DNA from: a phage | Reading direction: 5' to 3' (one strand) | Length of the DNA stretch: 17,548 nt | Assembly: GCA_025289735.1 (NCBI GenBank) | Contig: GCA_025289735.1_4764.3 | Part shown: positions 4,675-10,722 of the stretch, one piece after another | Numbering within the stretch: the stretch's first letter is position 1 | Layout of the letters: every line of letters begins with the position of its first letter | The notes under the pieces: generated by a model | Seen by the model: the letters and a program-made list of their open reading frames with translations, nothing else | What the model was told of the DNA's origin: nothing | Databases searched by the model: none | Translations under genes and position numbers: made by a program

Positions 4675-4971
4675 ATGGGCTATTGGGTAAGTAATGAACA
4701 AGACACTAAAATAGATGCTGTAAAATGGCATGTTTTTGATATTCCTAATGGATATGTTCCCGGTCGTGCTGGTGTTGCCGTTTTGCGGCATACCGCTCGT
4801 GATGGTTGGGGCGATATGCATATTTCCGTTGACGGTGTGGTCGCCGCGCGTCGTCGTGGTGGTGGGGATTGGGGATTTACGGTTAATGCGTTTGTTCCTG
4901 CTGGATGTACTGTCACCTTTGGTCATGGGGGTGTCGGTGGTATTGAATACTTTAAATTTATGGAGTTTTAA
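4675..4971 (+). CDS. Small Gly/Trp-rich protein, paralog A of a tandem triplet (98 aa)
   Basis: ATG with AAGGA 6 nt upstream. Shares MGYWV...FDIPNG...GGGD...G-T-T pattern with the two downstream ORFs. Confidence 0.65.
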   Translation: MGYWVSNEQDTKIDAVKWHVFDIPNGYVPGRAGVAVLRHTARDGWGDMHISVDGVVAARRRGGGDWGFTVNAFVPAGCTVTFGHGGVGGIEYFKFMEF

Positions 4972-4973
4972 TT

Positions 4974-5279
4974 ATGGCTGGTTGGGTTGCTGGAAGAATG
5001 GCTAATGCTATTAGCATTTATGCTAATGGCGGCTGGTTTGGTATCCCTAATGGTTGGGTTACTGATTCATGCGGTATTGTGTCTGTTCATGCCGAAGCCG
5101 TTGGCGGTGGAGGTGACTTGGACGCCGAATTATATGTAAACGGTACTCTAGAATCAGGTCATCACGCTGGTAATGCCGGAAGTTGGGGAGCTAGTTCTTT
5201 AGTTGGTGTTGGTGCTACTGTCAGTTTTAGCATTGGTAAAGGAAGTTTAAACCACTTCCAATTTAGGAGAATGCATTAA
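4974..5279 (+). CDS. Small Gly/Trp-rich protein, paralog B of a tandem triplet (101 aa)
   Basis: ATG 2 nt after the stop of paralog A, GGAG 8 nt upstream. Motifs GWFGIPNGW and GGGGD shared with paralogs A and C. Confidence 0.65.
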   Translation: MAGWVAGRMANAISIYANGGWFGIPNGWVTDSCGIVSVHAEAVGGGGDLDAELYVNGTLESGHHAGNAGSWGASSLVGVGATVSFSIGKGSLNHFQFRRMH

Positions 5280-5578
5280 TGGGATATTGGGTGTATGGCG
5301 TTTTAGACAATAAAGCCGGTAAAGCGAATCAGGGATGGTTTGATATTCCTAACGGTTGGACAGCCGACGCTTTCGGTACGGTTTCATTTGGTGCTCATTC
5401 TTCTGGTGGTGGTGGTGACTCAGAATTGCTTTTGCATGGCTTTTGTGTGTCTGGAAGTCATAAGGGTCATGATTGGGGACAGATCCATTCTTGTATTGTG
5501 CCGCAGGGAGTAACGATCACGGTAACTACAAACAGGGGCATTTCCCATCTTCGTTATAGACGCCAGAGCAACCGTTAA
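5279..5578 (+). CDS. Small Gly/Trp-rich protein, paralog C of a tandem triplet (99 aa)
   Basis: Start overlaps the stop of paralog B (TAATG). AGGAGA 8 nt upstream. Motifs MGYWV, GWFDIPNGW, GGGGD. Confidence 0.65.
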   Translation: MGYWVYGVLDNKAGKANQGWFDIPNGWTADAFGTVSFGAHSSGGGGDSELLLHGFCVSGSHKGHDWGQIHSCIVPQGVTITVTTNRGISHLRYRRQSNR

Positions 5579-5902: not shown

Positions 5903-6559
5903 ATGCAAGTTTCTGAAAAAGGGAAAGACTTTGCTATCTCAAATGTCCTGCGCGCTATTTTCACAACTAAAAGCACGGAGTTGCTCGTACTTCGTGTTTT
6001 TGCTGCCGTCGTGTTGTCCATATTAGCATTTGTCGTTTATAGTAAAAACGAGTTATTTGCCTTGTATAAAGAGACTCGTTATGAGACTTATGCTCACGTT
6101 CTCCAGGTAGAGAAAGACCGCAATTTTGATAATGCAGCACAGGAGCAGTTACAGATAGTTCATGTGTCGGCTGATGCCGATTTTTCTGCTGTTTTTAGTT
6201 TTCGTCCGAAAAACCTAAACTATTTTGTTGATTTGGTGGCATATGAAGGAAAGCTACCGCATACAATCGATGAAAAAAATTTAGGTGGATTCCCTATCAA
6301 TAAAACGAGTGAAGAATATCGTAGGCATCTTTTAGGTAAATCATATTTTACCGATAAAGATTTCCAGTATATTCCATCAAGAGAAAAGAAATTAGAGAGT
6401 ATCGATATAGGGTTTATGTATTCTTGCCCTATATTCAATCTCGATAATGTCTATTCTGGTAGTATCGCCATTGCGTGGAAGAATAAACCGGATATTGACA
6501 TTGAGAATTTAGATACTCTTTGCAATCAATCTGCCAGAATCCTCGGAAGGATTAGATAA
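5903..6559 (+). CDS. t: Holin, T4 t-type (218 aa)
   Basis: Same length as T4 holin T. Single TMD (LVLRVFAAVVLSILAFVVY) after a short N-terminal region, then a large C-terminal domain. Several blocks match my recollection of T4 T: EQLQIVH, ADFSAVxSFRPKNLNYFVD, AYEGKLP, MYSCPxFNLDNxYxG, ARILGR. Confidence 0.9.
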   Translation: MQVSEKGKDFAISNVLRAIFTTKSTELLVLRVFAAVVLSILAFVVYSKNELFALYKETRYETYAHVLQVEKDRNFDNAAQEQLQIVHVSADADFSAVFSFRPKNLNYFVDLVAYEGKLPHTIDEKNLGGFPINKTSEEYRRHLLGKSYFTDKDFQYIPSREKKLESIDIGFMYSCPIFNLDNVYSGSIAIAWKNKPDIDIENLDTLCNQSARILGRIR

Positions 6560-6564
6560 CTTAA

Positions 6565-6597
6565 AGGGGAAGCCTTTCGGCCTCCCCTTCTTTTTAT
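6565..6597 (+). terminator. Rho-independent terminator after holin t
   Basis: 10-bp stem AGGGGAAGCC / GGCCTCCCCT (one mismatch), loop TTTC, followed by TCTTTTTA. Confidence 0.7.
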
Positions 6598-6842
6598 TGG
6601 AGCATAGAAGCCCCTGAATCACATTTTGACGCTGTATGATGAAAACAGGTAGCGTACCAGTCATCGGCTTGTTTGTCTTCGTCAGAAAACGCGTAATTGC
6701 GTTGTATGCCGTTTTCTACTTTGACCAGTGCAATAGCTGTTTCTGGAAGATCAATCAATCGGACAAAATCACCGTCTTCCCACTCCACACGGGCAATATC
6801 ATAGCCCATCTCAAAGTATACAATCGCTTGTTCTAATTTCAT
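6594..6842 (-). CDS. Hypothetical early protein (82 aa)
   Basis: ATG overlaps the upstream stop (ATGA). Last gene of the minus-strand array, ending at the t terminator. Confidence 0.5.
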   Translation of the reverse strand: MKLEQAIVYFEMGYDIARVEWEDGDFVRLIDLPETAIALVKVENGIQRNYAFSDEDKQADDWYATCFHHTASKCDSGASMLQ

Positions 6843-7162
6843 TCTGGAAACTTCCCGTAAACATTCTCTGCCAGCTTACGTGCATCTTTTACAATATCTT
6901 TCATGTAATGACTATAATTTTTAGCTAGATCAATGATGCAATCAACAAAGAAGTAATAGCGTCGCAGTGCTACCAGCTCAACATCTTCAAGATGACCATT
7001 TTCTCCAATCGCTGAAATATGTTTAAATTCCTTTCGGATCGCGTCCATCGCTACATTAACTTCTTTTATAATATCTTTCGTATTATATGCACCTCGACTA
7101 ATCAAAATTTTGGTTAGGTCTTCTGCTTTTTCGTGAAAGTTGTCAATTTCAAACTCGATCAT
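6839..7162 (-). CDS. Hypothetical early protein (107 aa), paralog of 7277..7609
   Basis: Track start at 7168 is a GTG lying inside the SD GAGGTGA. ATG at 7160..7162 with that SD 5 nt upstream is the likelier start. C-terminus ...ARKLAENVYGKFPE resembles the neighbour's ...ARIMTENIFGKF. Confidence 0.55.
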   Translation of the reverse strand: MIEFEIDNFHEKAEDLTKILISRGAYNTKDIIKEVNVAMDAIRKEFKHISAIGENGHLEDVELVALRRYYFFVDCIIDLAKNYSHYMKDIVKDARKLAENVYGKFPE

Positions 7163-7276
7163 AATCACCTCTCATGGTTTAACGCTGTTGTGTCAACATT
7201 TTTTCGTGGTTTGCTAATTCTATACATTGTAATAGCATAACCAGTGCAATTTTCAATGATTCATCATCTTTCATAA

Positions 7277-7609
7277 TCAAAATTTACCGAAAATATTCTC
7301 TGTCATAATTCTTGCTTCGTCGATTATTTTCGTCATGTTCATGGTGTAGTTATGATCATTTAGTGCCTTAATAACAACGAGCAAGGAATCTAAAAACACT
7401 CGATACCGTGTATATTCTACGCTATTTGTGAATACCGATGTTTTCTCGACTTTATCGATCAGATAGCCTAAAACCGATAGCGCCTCGTTTACTTCCCTTG
7501 TTACTTTATCGGCGCTAAAAAGCACCGGATAAAGGCGCGGTGTGATTAACCGCGCTGCCTCTTTCAATTCGGTCGCTTTCCATGATTCATATTTGTCATA
7601 GTTAAACAT
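7277..7609 (-). CDS. Hypothetical early protein (110 aa), paralog of 6839..7162
   Basis: ATG with AAGGAGA 8 nt upstream. Shared blocks EVN-A, RY--F-D, ARxxxENxxGKF with the downstream neighbour. Confidence 0.55.
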   Translation of the reverse strand: MFNYDKYESWKATELKEAARLITPRLYPVLFSADKVTREVNEALSVLGYLIDKVEKTSVFTNSVEYTRYRVFLDSLLVVIKALNDHNYTMNMTKIIDEARIMTENIFGKF

Positions 7610-7621
7610 TGTATAATCTCC

Positions 7622-7954
7622 TTACAGATGAAAACCTGTTACAATCACCGCATCGATCATACCGCTAGGAATAAACGGTTCACCCTCTTTTATTTCAACT
7701 TTGAATTGATGCCATTTCGCTAATACTTCTTCCGGTACACCCAGCGATTCGGCGTCTGCTTTAGTTTCATCCATAATCCAACTAGGCTGCATGAGAGCAT
7801 AGTTTACATAGTCCATTTCTGGGGTCATGTCATCAATGTTAATATATTTGCAGTTGACGCGTTTCAGAATTTCAAATTCTTTATTATCAACCTGTACCAT
7901 GTACAATTCGGTAGTTTCTGGAATCAGTTCCCATACAATCAGTACATTTTTCAT
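7622..7954 (-). CDS. Hypothetical early protein (110 aa)
   Basis: ATG with GAGGTGA upstream, overlapping the stop of the preceding gene. Tight operon packing. Confidence 0.55.
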   Translation of the reverse strand: MKNVLIVWELIPETTELYMVQVDNKEFEILKRVNCKYINIDDMTPEMDYVNYALMQPSWIMDETKADAESLGVPEEVLAKWHQFKVEIKEGEPFIPSGMIDAVIVTGFHL

Positions 7955-8556: not shown

Positions 8557-8838
8557 TTATTTTCGGTTATACTTCTGCCACTTTCGGTAATACTGCTTGT
8601 AATATTGTTTAATGTTTGGTGGTTCGTCACTATACATGTTATCAACCATCATGTCAATAAGACCTTCCGGTGTTTGATAGTTACCCGCTCGAATGAGTTC
8701 CTTAATCAAAAGATCTTGCGTCGCTTTATACTTGACAATAACAACTGTCTTTTCTGCCTTTCCAATTCCGATCCGGTCGTTAGCTCTCATAGCATCCCAC
8801 CAATCTTTTTTAAACTTCATGTTGTTAAATTTCATCAT
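8557..8838 (-). CDS. Hypothetical early protein (93 aa), basic Tyr/Lys-rich C-terminus
   Basis: Two consecutive ATG codons with AAGAAGGG upstream, overlapping the stop of the 266-aa gene. Confidence 0.5.
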   Translation of the reverse strand: MMKFNNMKFKKDWWDAMRANDRIGIGKAEKTVVIVKYKATQDLLIKELIRAGNYQTPEGLIDMMVDNMYSDEPPNIKQYYKQYYRKWQKYNRK

Positions 8839-9639
8839 TTAACCCTTCTTATATTCGCAAACATATTGAGTACCATAATCATAGCTAATGCGACCTTTCT
8901 CGATGACTTCAAAGCGGATTTCATCGTTTTCCCCTACCCACATTTTGTACTCGTTGAAGTATCCTGCTACATCCGGTTTGCTCATACCAACAACCATATT
9001 TTTATATTGTTTGCTGCGTGTCAGATTTGATTTAAACACTTCGCGCTCATCAACATATACGAAAGAAGACAATTCACCTTCGGTCATGGTCATTTTCAGC
9101 TTGCCGCCCTTGTTGCCATAAGTAGAGTTGCCATACAATGGATCTTTGCGGCTGTCTGTTTCAATACCATCAATGATTTTCCATGTAAATTTTGCAATGC
9201 ACTGGTAAGTGATAGATCCAGAGATTTTCTCTTCTTTCTTCTGTTCTTCCACCACTTTTTCTTCCTGTTTCGGTTGTTCTTCTTCAACCTTCACAGAAGT
9301 CTCTGAATCGCTTTCTGACGCGGTTTCTTCTTTAGGTAATACATTCATCAAGTTTTGGATTTGAGCGTGATATACAGCCTCCAGTGGCTGAATTTTCCCG
9401 ATATTGATCATTGTATCACGAACAGTTTTATTCCAGTTGCGTTGCTCTTGTTTCAGAGACGGATCAATCTTAACAGCCTTAACATATACTTCATGAAGTT
9501 TAGAATCAAGTGCGGAGATAGACTCATTAGCACAAATAAACTTCTCTGATTTGGTAGTAGCTTTAGCGCAATCAAAGGACGCAGCATTAGCACCGAAAGC
9601 AGTAGCAGAAAGAACGATAGCAGCGATAATGTTTTTCAT
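8839..9639 (-). CDS. Secreted protein with N-terminal LprI/DUF1311-like domain, charged linker and C-terminal beta-rich domain (266 aa)
   Basis: ATG with GAGGAA 8 nt upstream, directly downstream of promoter cassette P3. Signal peptide MKNIIAAIVLSATAFGANA|AS. Then FDCAKATTKSEKFICANESISALDSKLHEVY...QEQRNWNKTVRD, fitting the DUF1311 pattern as I recall it (C..A.T..E..IC...LD..L..Y...Q..W...RD). E/K-rich linker. C-terminal domain with two Cys and an SGSITY motif. Confidence 0.7.
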   Translation of the reverse strand: MKNIIAAIVLSATAFGANAASFDCAKATTKSEKFICANESISALDSKLHEVYVKAVKIDPSLKQEQRNWNKTVRDTMINIGKIQPLEAVYHAQIQNLMNVLPKEETASESDSETSVKVEEEQPKQEEKVVEEQKKEEKISGSITYQCIAKFTWKIIDGIETDSRKDPLYGNSTYGNKGGKLKMTMTEGELSSFVYVDEREVFKSNLTRSKQYKNMVVGMSKPDVAGYFNEYKMWVGENDEIRFEVIEKGRISYDYGTQYVCEYKKG

Positions 9640-9673: not shown

Positions 9674-9702
9674 ATGTTACTACTCCCTTAATCCGGTGTC
9701 AA
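9674..9702 (-). promoter_or_regulatory. Sigma70-like early promoter P3 (-35 TTGACA, 17-nt spacer, -10 TAACAT)
   Basis: Minus-strand sequence aaaaagtagTTGACA-N17-TAACAT, about 35 nt upstream of the ATG at 9639. A-rich upstream element. Shares a conserved leader with the other cassettes. Confidence 0.6.
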
Positions 9703-9896: not shown

Positions 9897-9925
9897 ATTA
9901 TAGGGGATCACCGATCCCCTGTCAA
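9897..9925 (-). promoter_or_regulatory. Sigma70-like early promoter P4 (-35 TTGACA, palindromic 17-nt spacer, -10 TATAAT)
   Basis: Minus-strand GTTGACA-GGGGATCGGTGATCCCC-TATAAT. The spacer is a perfect inverted repeat containing two GATC sites. Confidence 0.6.
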
Positions 9926-10491: not shown

Positions 10492-10520
10492 ATAATACTA
10501 CCGATGACCTTTGGCGTCAA
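10492..10520 (-). promoter_or_regulatory. Sigma70-like early promoter P2 (-35 TTGACG, 17-nt spacer, -10 TATTAT)
   Basis: Minus-strand acaaaaaactaGTTGACG-N17-TATTAT followed by the conserved leader ATACTCCCATACCGAAAC. Overlaps the 3' end of the upstream gene. Confidence 0.6.
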
Positions 10521-10722
10521 CTAGTTTTTTGTTATTTTCGTGAAAATTTTTCGTCGCCTCATGTGCTTTTCGCTGGGCTTCTTGTTGTGCTTGCTGGCGT
10601 GCTGCCTCTTGCGATGCCATAACAGACGCATTTGCAGCAGTTACAGCCGCGACCATCGCTGCGGTATTAGCATTTACCGTACATGCACTAGCCAGCAAAG
10701 CAATTGCAATCATTTTCTTCAT
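10498..10722 (-). CDS. Small secreted protein or lipoprotein (74 aa) with Gln/Ala-rich helical mature region
   Basis: ATG with AAGGGG 6 nt upstream, overlapping the upstream stop (ATGA). N-terminus MKKMIAIALLASAC has a lipobox-like LASAC; an alternative signal peptidase I site lies at VNA|NT. Mature part QEAARQQAQQEAQRKAHEATK. Confidence 0.6.
   Translation of the reverse strand: MKKMIAIALLASACTVNANTAAMVAAVTAANASVMASQEAARQQAQQEAQRKAHEATKNFHENNKKLVDAKGHR

What the first reader, a model, noticed from the sequence alone, without database searches (positions are those of the whole stretch)
6839..7609. Tandem pair of diverged paralogous early genes
The 107-aa and 110-aa products share blocks (EVN-A, RY--F-D, ARxxxENxxGKF at the C-terminus) and are separated by about 110 bp that lacks a full promoter cassette. 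A local duplication followed by divergence is a common signature of counter-defence or host-takeover genes under selection.
Basis: seen in the sequence. Interest (0 to 1): 0.4.

Follow-up and report, generated by a model that had tools for sequence, protein, structure and literature searches.

The report
Old paralogue pair in swap-prone phage cassette
Two neighbouring early genes of an RB49-like (Krischvirus) coliphage are true but ancient duplicates encoding small four-helix-bundle proteins of unknown function, and they form a cassette that recombination swaps between otherwise near-identical phages, next to a Tad2-like anti-defence gene; this makes them a reasonable but unproven counter-defence candidate.

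Summary
ORF A (6839-7162, minus strand, 107 aa, RB49p256) and ORF B (7277-7609, minus strand, 110 aa, RB49p257) are homologous. Their local alignment scores 76 against 27.9±5.0 for shuffles (z 9.6, 0 of 5000). Both match PHROG 9457 over their full length and both model as four-helix bundles.

The window is a Krischvirus genome. The pair lies in an early leftward operon between topoisomerase gene 52 and holin t, the slot where T4 carries asiA and arn.

The family is a strict ORFan. It occurs only in the 59 Krischvirus records and a few metagenome contigs. It has no Pfam, PDB, PADLOC or informative fold match.

The duplication is old: about 26-31% amino-acid identity, saturated dS, and reciprocally monophyletic A and B clades.

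A is present in 59 of 59 records, as at least five deeply diverged alleles. B is present in 49 of 59. Flanking genes are 94-100% identical, and the identity boundaries are sharp at about 7624 and 6880. This points to cassette exchange, not recent positive selection (dN/dS 0.03-0.39).

The 114-bp gap has no promoter and holds an annotated mini-ORF that shows no purifying selection.

A's stop overlaps the start of a conserved Tad2-like gene. A counter-defence role is therefore plausible but circumstantial. Interest is modest.

The parts
7277..7609 (-). Paralogue B (110 aa; RB49p257 orthologue). It is the optional upstream slot of the cassette.
   Evidence: ORF with an AAGGAG Shine-Dalgarno sequence upstream of the ATG. 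PHROG 9457 match, E 3e-43. AF2 model with four helices, pLDDT 67.9. Present in 49 of 59 Krischvirus records, as two allele types that are 70% identical. dN/dS is 0.03 within an allele type.
7163..7276 (-). 114-bp spacer between B and A. It holds mini-ORF 7179-7274 (31 codons here; 41 in RB49, GEC-3S and KMB43; 36 in SFHK24) and the GAGGTG ribosome-binding site of A.
   Evidence: PHROG 17009 match, E 4e-23, and annotated as a CDS in relatives. Among five phages there are about 7-8 non-synonymous changes against 1 synonymous, a premature TAA in this window and a frameshift in SFHK24. No coding-strand promoter. No stable RNA fold, z -0.56, and no Rfam match. Present once per genome in 46 records, and absent from kvi-type and single-copy phages. 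A 9-bp TGATTATGA sequence sits at both ends.
6839..7162 (-). Paralogue A (107 aa; RB49p256 orthologue). It is the universal, hypervariable slot of the cassette.
   Evidence: PHROG 9457 match, E 8e-57. AF2 four-helix bundle, pLDDT 86.9, pTM 0.81. Present in 59 of 59 Krischvirus records. At least five allele types at 40-54% identity. dS between types is 1.0-2.3 against 0.06-0.32 in the flanks.
6880..7624 (-). Variable cassette as delimited by nucleotide identity to other Krischvirus genomes. It covers B, the spacer and about the first 92-94 codons of A.
   Evidence: In 30-nt windows, identity falls from 27-30/30 to 0-23/30 at about 7624 and recovers to 26-30/30 at about 6880. Neither boundary carries a PeSL or promoter.
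6594..6842 (-). Downstream Tad2-like (DUF2829) gene, 82 aa, RB49p255 orthologue. Its ATG overlaps the TGA of A (ATGA).
   Evidence: Pfam PF11195, E 3.4e-6, 27.9 bits against a cut-off of 25. 96-99% identical across the genus. The same order (family member, Tad2-like, holin t) occurs in sister-lineage contig L008. The overlap was read.
6564..6590 (.). Stem-loop terminator shared by the convergent holin t gene and the early leftward unit.
   Evidence: AAGGGGAAGCC-TTTC-GGCCTCCCCTT followed by CTTTTTATT. Annotated as a bidirectional terminator in GEC-3S. The T-run is weak in the leftward direction.
9674..9702 (-). Nearest annotated early promoter upstream of the unit that contains the pair (TTGACA-17-TAACAT).
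   Evidence: 10 of 12 consensus matches. Annotated as a promoter in GEC-3S. Sequence read.
9897..9925 (-). Perfect-consensus early promoter with a stem-loop in its spacer (PeSL-type cassette), further upstream.
   Evidence: TTGACA-GGGGATCGGTGATCCCC-TATAAT. The PeSL concept is from PMC2839356.

Best explanation
Shown. A and B are ancient tandem paralogues of an ORFan family (PHROG 9457) confined to Krischvirus and one sister lineage. Each encodes a soluble, mildly acidic protein of about 12-13 kDa predicted to form an up-down four-helix bundle. They are co-transcribed in an early leftward polycistronic unit with no promoter between them. The unit ends with a Tad2-like gene whose start overlaps A's stop. 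Both genes are under purifying selection. The segment B-spacer-A (up to about codon 92-94 of A) behaves as a recombination cassette. Old alleles of A, and the presence or absence of B, are reassorted among genomes whose flanks are nearly identical. The conserved flanking coding sequence, including the 3' end of A, probably serves as the homology arms.

Inferred. The proteins are non-enzymatic binding proteins that neutralise variable host factors, most likely components of anti-phage defence. The conserved core and C-terminal helix (AR...EN..GKF) would provide the scaffold or a common contact. The hypervariable N-terminal helix and helix 2-3 loop would set specificity. Carrying two diverged copies, or swapping alleles, would then change which host variants can be countered.
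For: Homology. Restriction to the genus: tblastn finds 59 records, all Krischvirus. An exhaustive profile search of 1.84 billion representatives finds only four short full-length matches I count as family members. A third profile search adds none. Fold: A models with pLDDT 86.9 and pTM 0.81, with helices at 2-22, 28-54, 59-82 and 87-102. B has helices at matching positions. Independent BFVD models of an A-type and a B-type protein match A's model at TM 0.91 and 0.75. Cassette behaviour: flanking proteins are 94-100% identical while A is 49-53% identical and B is 70% identical or absent. Nucleotide boundaries are sharp. dS is 1.0-2.3 in A against 0.06-0.32 in the flanks, with dN/dS 0.15-0.39 between alleles and 0-0.09 within alleles. 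Other variable genes within 3 kb reassort independently. Four arrangements occur: B-spacer-A, B'-A', a single A, and B-spacer-A''. Counter-defence context: Pfam Tad2-like neighbour above the gathering cut-off, with an ATGA overlap, and the same synteny in sister-lineage contig L008. Anti-defence genes are reported to co-localise in phage genomes (bioRxiv 10.1101/2023.05.01.538930). Hypervariability together with the dispensability of B argues against a conserved housekeeping host target.
Confidence: 0.4

Rival explanations
1. The proteins are host-takeover factors aimed at a conserved host machine. In this reading they are functional analogues of the T4 genes that occupy the same slot next to holin t: asiA (anti-sigma-70) and arn (anti-McrBC).
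For: In T4 the genes immediately leftward of t are asiA, asiA.1 and arn. RB49p259, two genes upstream of B, is annotated as similar to a T4 protein of the asiA-motA region. RB49 has no recognised motA, and it is not among the phages listed as having asiA orthologues (PMC1524935). A and B are small, early and all-helical, as AsiA is.
Confidence: 0.15
2. A (and perhaps B) is an accessory partner of the Tad2-like protein. It would modulate, stabilise or extend the ligand range of a signal-sequestering sponge, and would not act on its own.
For: A's stop overlaps the Tad2-like start (ATGA), which suggests translational coupling. The pair 'family member then Tad2-like' is kept in all 59 Krischvirus records and in the sister-lineage contig L008. 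The C-terminal helix of A is nearly invariant at the protein level.
Against: Characterised Tad2 proteins act alone as homotetramers. The Tad2-like protein is 96-99% conserved while A varies to about 50%, the opposite of what co-evolving partners would show. The nucleotide-level conservation of A's 3' end is explained by its lying outside the recombination cassette.
Confidence: 0.1
3. The cassette mediates competition between related phages, for example allele-specific exclusion or incompatibility during co-infection, and not interaction with the host.
For: Old alleles are maintained side by side in a single genus. The cassette has sharp boundaries and a presence/absence polymorphism. Loci under frequency-dependent selection show the same pattern.
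Against: There is no nuclease, membrane or other exclusion-type domain. The proteins are soluble, with GRAVY -0.1 to -0.6. No homing-endonuclease gene or repeat element lies nearby.
Confidence: 0.1
4. The genes are neutral ORFan passengers of a hyperplastic region. They have no important function, and their similarity reflects duplication without adaptive meaning.
For: They lie in a region known for ORFan turnover (PMC2839356). B is absent from 10 of 59 records. The mini-ORF between them shows no constraint.
Against: A is retained in 59 of 59 genomes and in a sister lineage. dN/dS is 0-0.09 within alleles and 0.15-0.39 between them. Invariant residues are spread over all four helices after saturating synonymous divergence.
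Confidence: 0.1

Closest known systems
PHROG 9457 (unknown function; RB49p256, RB49p257 and their Krischvirus orthologues)
   Same: Both window proteins match the profile end to end (E 8e-57 and 3e-43). This is the family itself.
   Different: The PHROG carries no function. The paralogy, allele structure and cassette behaviour were not found described in the searchable literature (one search returned no paper naming these genes).
ORFan modules of T4-type hyperplastic regions, shuffled via PeSL cassettes (Arbiol et al. 2010, PMC2839356; Comeau et al. 2014, PMC4122927)
   Same: Same phage group and the same kind of region. These are non-essential early ORFans that are inserted, deleted or replaced between near-identical genomes. 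PeSL-type promoters lie upstream in the same window.
   Different: This cassette's boundaries are not PeSLs. The upstream boundary is the stop/RBS junction after the preceding gene. The downstream boundary lies inside the conserved 3' end of gene A. Exchange here therefore appears to use ordinary coding homology.
Phage anti-defence gene clusters containing Tad2 (DUF2829) sponges (Yirmiya et al., bioRxiv 10.1101/2023.05.01.538930)
   Same: Small early proteins sit directly beside a Tad2-like gene. That paper proposes co-localisation of anti-defence genes as a general rule.
   Different: A and B are four-helix bundles, whereas Tad2 has an alpha/beta fold. They have no sequence or fold relation to Tad1, Tad2, Acb2, Sequestin or other known sponges. 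No activity has been tested.
T4 AsiA and Arn (positional counterparts next to holin t)
   Same: Same genomic slot, orientation, early timing and size range. AsiA is also all-helical (the AsiA fold is from my own knowledge).
   Different: No detectable homology. AsiA is conserved among T-even phages, whereas A is hypervariable.
Tandem paralogous accessory genes of T4, such as modA/modB and ipII/ipIII (from my own knowledge, not tested here)
   Same: Adjacent diverged duplicates of non-essential genes involved in host interaction.
   Different: Those families are ADP-ribosyltransferases or packaged internal proteins. The present family has no recognisable catalytic or packaging signal.

Membership tests
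PHROG 9457 (Krischvirus ORFan family) | Significant full-length match to the family profile | tested here: met
   A: E 7.9e-57 over residues 1-107, profile 1-107/107. B: E 2.7e-43 over residues 7-110, profile 1-105/107.
PHROG 9457 (Krischvirus ORFan family) | Shared fold between the two paralogues | tested here: met
   Four helices at equivalent positions in the AF2 models of A and B. The BFVD model of B-type JEP8 matches A's model at TM 0.75, E 7.6e-4. B's own model is only pLDDT 67.9.
AsiA anti-sigma-70 family | Sequence or profile similarity to AsiA | tested here: not met
   hhalign probability 0.4% against T4 AsiA. No Pfam AsiA hit at E <= 1.
AsiA anti-sigma-70 family | Binding to sigma-70 region 4 | not testable with these tools
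   Needs pull-down or two-hybrid assays, or complex prediction.
Arn (anti-McrBC DNA mimic) | Sequence similarity and a strongly acidic DNA-mimic surface | tested here: not met
   hhalign probability 0.3%. pI is 5.2-6.8 with net charge -0.1 to -4.3, which is not DNA-mimic-like.
Nucleotide-signal sponges (Tad1, Tad2, Acb2, Sequestin) | Sequence or fold similarity to a known sponge family | tested here: not met
Nucleotide-signal sponges (Tad1, Tad2, Acb2, Sequestin) | Homo-oligomer with ligand pockets at protomer interfaces | not testable with these tools
   Only monomer prediction was available.
Tad2-like / DUF2829 (applies to the neighbouring gene 6594-6842, not to A or B) | Pfam PF11195 score above the gathering cut-off | tested here: met
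   27.9 bits against a cut-off of 25, E 3.4e-6, covering profile positions 1-71 of 73. The contig L008 neighbour is also flagged PF11195, as a weak hit.
Tad2-like / DUF2829 (applies to the neighbouring gene 6594-6842, not to A or B) | Sequestration of gcADPR or cyclic nucleotides | not testable with these tools
   phmmer finds no solved Tad2 chain.
PeSL-bounded shuffling module (Arbiol et al. 2010) | Early promoter plus stem-loop cassettes at the module boundaries | tested here: not met
   No promoter-like site on the coding strand at about 7624, in 7163-7276 or at about 6880. PeSL-type elements occur only further upstream, at 9897-9925.

The most novel reading that the evidence does not exclude
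A and B found a new family of four-helix-bundle anti-defence proteins specific to Krischvirus. In this reading, deeply diverged alleles, and the optional second copy, each neutralise a different variant of a polymorphic E. coli/Shigella immune protein. Together with the translationally coupled Tad2-like sponge they would form a compact, recombination-swappable counter-defence module that sets strain-level host range.
Probability: 0.3. Interest if true: 0.55.

Novelty: new member of a known kind. Interest (0 to 1): 0.3.

Why it matters
Krischvirus phages such as GEC-3S, Phi1 and JSE were isolated for or considered for phage therapy, so genes that set strain-level host range matter in practice. 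This locus is a compact, well-delimited natural experiment. The backbone is the same, while gene A occurs as five or more old alleles and gene B is present or absent. That makes allele-swap and deletion tests against defence-system panels straightforward. If the proteins prove to be immune inhibitors, they would add a structurally new family to the anti-defence repertoire. They would also show cassette exchange through coding homology, which differs from PeSL-mediated shuffling. If they do not, the finding remains an ordinary example of ORFan duplication in a hyperplastic region.

Tried and rejected
1. Chance similarity is rejected by the shuffle test.
2. No known family was found. Pfam, NCBIfam, PADLOC and PDB sequence searches returned only sub-threshold noise: LAMB4, Cmr1, glutaredoxin 2 and an archaeal regulator at E 0.3.
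4. Remote homologues were not found. The exhaustive profile search gave seven hits. Three of these are long proteins matched only in several short partial stretches, which I judged spurious (P0032, the one inspected, is an internally repetitive protein). A scan of IMG/VR viral contigs confirmed none. The final profile search added no new members.
5. An AsiA or Arn relationship is rejected.
6. There is no third paralogue in the window.
7. The spacer is not a structured RNA or a mobile repeat. The fold z-score is -0.56, Rfam gives no match, and there is one copy per genome.
8. The mini-ORF is probably not a constrained protein gene. It shows about 7-8 non-synonymous changes against 1 synonymous, plus a stop and a frameshift. 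Numbers are small, so this is not decisive.
9. A DNA-mimic role is rejected on charge.
10. No paper names RB49p256 or RB49p257. The BASEL paper has nothing on Krischvirus.
11. T4 Y16O (Sequestin) was checked as a possible link to the 63-aa neighbour. That ORF has no Pfam hit at E <= 1, PF21825 included, and Y16O's N-terminus, read from the paper's primers, matches none of the T4 asiA-motA genes.

Full report
**Identity of the window.** The window is 98% identical to Enterobacteria phage GEC-3S and matches 59 records, all Krischvirus (RB49, Phi1, JSE and GEC-3S group of T4-type phages). The layout is as follows. Tail-fibre genes 36 and 37 lie on the plus strand, followed by holin t (5903-6559, plus strand) and a shared stem-loop terminator (about 6564-6590). 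A long run of leftward early genes then extends to topoisomerase gene 52, rIIB and rIIA. The finding lies in the last leftward transcription unit before the terminator.

**Checking the observation.** Both ORFs are on the minus strand.
- A is 6839-7162, 107 aa, and corresponds to RB49p256.
- B is 7277-7609, 110 aa, and corresponds to RB49p257.
- BLASTP gives E = 6e-8 over the C-terminal 43 residues.
- In my shuffle test the local score is 76 against 27.9±5.0 (z 9.6, 0 of 5000). The global score gives z 9.1.
- The N-terminal halves are not significant pairwise (z 1.1).
- A 15-sequence family alignment nevertheless has invariant columns along the whole length: A13, E34-V35-N36, A38, I42, K44, Y69, F72, D74, Y83, M87, A94, N100 and G103, in A numbering.
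- Both proteins match PHROG 9457 from end to end.

**The gap between the genes.** The 114 bp between B and A has no sigma-70-type promoter on the coding strand. It is annotated in relatives as a 36-41-codon CDS (RB49p256.1, PHROG 17009).
- In this window a TAA truncates the ORF to 31 codons. In SFHK24 a frameshift gives 36 codons.
- Among five phages I count about 7-8 non-synonymous changes against 1 synonymous. There is therefore no sign of purifying selection.
- The spacer has no stable RNA fold (z -0.56) and no Rfam match.
- It occurs once per genome, in exactly the 46 records that carry the RB49-type B.
- A 9-bp TGATTATGA sequence sits at both ends. It overlaps B's stop and the mini-ORF's start at one end, and A's start at the other.

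I treat the spacer as a weakly constrained linker whose main conserved feature is A's ribosome-binding site, GAGAGGTGATTATG. That site is also found in phages that lack the spacer.

**What the proteins are.**
- A models as an up-down four-helix bundle: pLDDT 86.9, pTM 0.81, helices 2-22, 28-54, 59-82 and 87-102.
- B gives the same four helices at lower confidence (pLDDT 67.9).
- Independent BFVD models of an A-type protein (ECD7, TM 0.91) and a B-type protein (JEP8, TM 0.75, E 7.6e-4) are the only viral structures that match.
- Pfam, NCBIfam, PADLOC and PDB sequence searches are negative.
- The proteins are soluble and mildly acidic (pI 5.2-6.8).
- An exhaustive profile search of 1.84 billion representative proteins finds only four short full-length matches that I count as family members. 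Two further word-indexed searches add none outside the group.

This is a strict ORFan family.

**Distribution of one or two copies.** Four arrangements occur.
1. RB49 type: B, spacer, A, as in this window.
2. SFHK24/SSG23 type: the same B and spacer, followed by an A allele about 50% identical to the window's.
3. kvi/AV108 type, and contig L009: a 70%-identical B followed directly by a 113-116-aa A allele, with no spacer.
4. ECD7/Makalu/Brandy/MIZ4-5/Skers/pEJ01 type: a single A-type gene of 103 aa and no B.

A is present in 59 of 59 records and B in 49 of 59. Several records are GenBank/RefSeq duplicates of the same phage. A metagenome contig from a related but distinct phage (holin region about 78% identical in nucleotides) carries one intermediate family member, followed by a Tad2-like gene and holin t. 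In a neighbour-joining tree the A alleles and the B alleles form separate clades, and the sister-lineage protein falls between them. The duplication therefore predates the diversification of the A alleles, and the single-copy state is probably a secondary loss of B.

**Cassette behaviour.**
- Across seven comparison phages the flanking proteins (63, 122 and 110 aa upstream; Tad2-like and holin downstream) are 94-100% identical. A is 49-53% identical, and B is 70% identical or absent.
- In 30-nt windows, nucleotide identity drops abruptly at about 7624 and recovers at about 6880, which is inside the last ~40 nt of gene A.
- Nei-Gojobori estimates give dS of 1.0-2.3 between A allele types, against 0.06-0.32 in the flanks.
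- dN/dS is 0.15-0.39 between alleles, 0-0.09 within alleles (0.03 for B between the window and SFHK24), and 0-0.08 in the flanks.

The alleles are thus old lineages kept functional by purifying selection and moved between backbones by homologous recombination. They are not products of recent in-place acceleration. Two other genes within 3 kb (266 aa and 93 aa) are also dimorphic, and they reassort independently of A. The cassette boundaries carry no promoter/stem-loop (PeSL) elements. This differs from the shuffling mechanism described for this phage group (PMC2839356).

**Context and likely function.** A's TGA overlaps the ATG of an 82-aa gene. That gene passes Pfam's threshold for the Tad2-like (DUF2829) domain (27.9 bits against 25) and is 96-99% conserved across the genus. 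Tad2 proteins sequester Thoeris signalling molecules, and anti-defence genes are reported to cluster (bioRxiv 10.1101/2023.05.01.538930).

In T4 the equivalent slot beside t holds asiA, asiA.1 and arn. RB49 has no recognised motA, and it is not listed among the phages with asiA orthologues (PMC1524935). Profile comparison of the family with AsiA and Arn is negative. A hypervariable and partly dispensable gene also fits poorly with a conserved host target.

My preferred reading, at about 0.4, is that A and B are stoichiometric binders of polymorphic host factors, most likely immune components. The conserved core and C-terminal helix would serve as scaffold, and the variable N-terminal helix and helix 2-3 loop would set specificity. 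That mapping is inferred from helix boundaries and alignment variability, not from coordinates. The rivals are host takeover (0.15), a partner of the Tad2-like protein (0.1), inter-phage competition (0.1) and neutral passenger genes (0.1). None can be excluded without experiments.

**Novelty and score.** Tandem diverged ORFans in T4-type hyperplastic regions are a known phenomenon, and the family already exists as an unannotated PHROG. Three points are new here:
- the demonstration of paralogy;
- the allele and copy-number structure;
- the non-PeSL cassette boundaries and the coupling to a Tad2-like gene.

I rate the finding a new member of a known kind, with interest 0.3. The most novel reading not excluded is a new four-helix anti-defence family with allele-specific targets (probability about 0.3, interest 0.55 if true).

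Noticed in passing
window 6594-6842 (-): An 82-aa early gene (RB49p255 orthologue) passes the Pfam gathering threshold for the Tad2-like/DUF2829 Thoeris anti-defence domain (27.9 bits against 25). It is strongly acidic (pI 4.4), 96-99% conserved across Krischvirus, and annotated only as hypothetical in all records seen. phmmer finds no solved Tad2 structure.
   Followed up: partly
window 4675-4971, 4974-5279, 5279-5578 (+): Three back-to-back ORFs of 98, 101 and 99 aa lie between the distal tail-fibre gene 37 and Dc5. They are mutual paralogues (33-41% identity, E 1e-7 to 6e-19), glycine-rich, and share an N-terminal G.WV...IPNGW motif. They have essentially no PHROG assignment. GEC-3S lacks them: its gene 37 runs through this stretch. 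They may be a receptor-recognition or tail-fibre accessory array.
   Followed up: partly
window 10498-10722 (-): A 74-aa ORF gives a BLASTP match to T4 MotA residues 80-126 (34% over 47 aa, E 1.3e-5 in a nine-protein database). RB49-type phages are reported to lack motA. This could be a charged low-complexity coincidence.
   Followed up: no
window 8839-9639 (-) and 8557-8838 (-): The 266-aa and 93-aa genes are each dimorphic among Krischvirus (about 65% and 46-48% identity between types). They reassort independently of each other and of gene A. The 266-aa protein's N-terminus hits Pfam LprI, a lysozyme-inhibitor family (E 8e-5, 23.4 bits against a cut-off of 22).
   Followed up: partly
window 7159-7167 and 7271-7279 (-): An identical 9-bp TGATTATGA sequence lies at both ends of the 114-bp spacer. 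One copy is at B's stop and the mini-ORF's start, the other at A's start. It could be a trace of how the spacer was inserted or duplicated, or just a convergent stop/start context.
   Followed up: partly
window 9897-9925 (-): A perfect TTGACA-17-TATAAT promoter whose spacer is itself a 7-bp-stem hairpin (GGGGATC-GGT-GATCCCC). This is a textbook PeSL-type cassette of RB49-like phages.
   Followed up: no
protein P0013: An 81-aa fragment 99% identical to B is labelled in NCBI as a partial hypothetical protein of Bacillus atrophaeus, on a 1.2-kb contig. It is most likely coliphage contamination of that assembly.
   Followed up: no
protein P0025: This A variant is 93% identical to the window's A, but its C-terminal segment (YMNDIIIDARKLAENIYGKFPE) resembles the ECD7/SFHK24 alleles. 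That suggests an intragenic recombination breakpoint within gene A.
   Followed up: no
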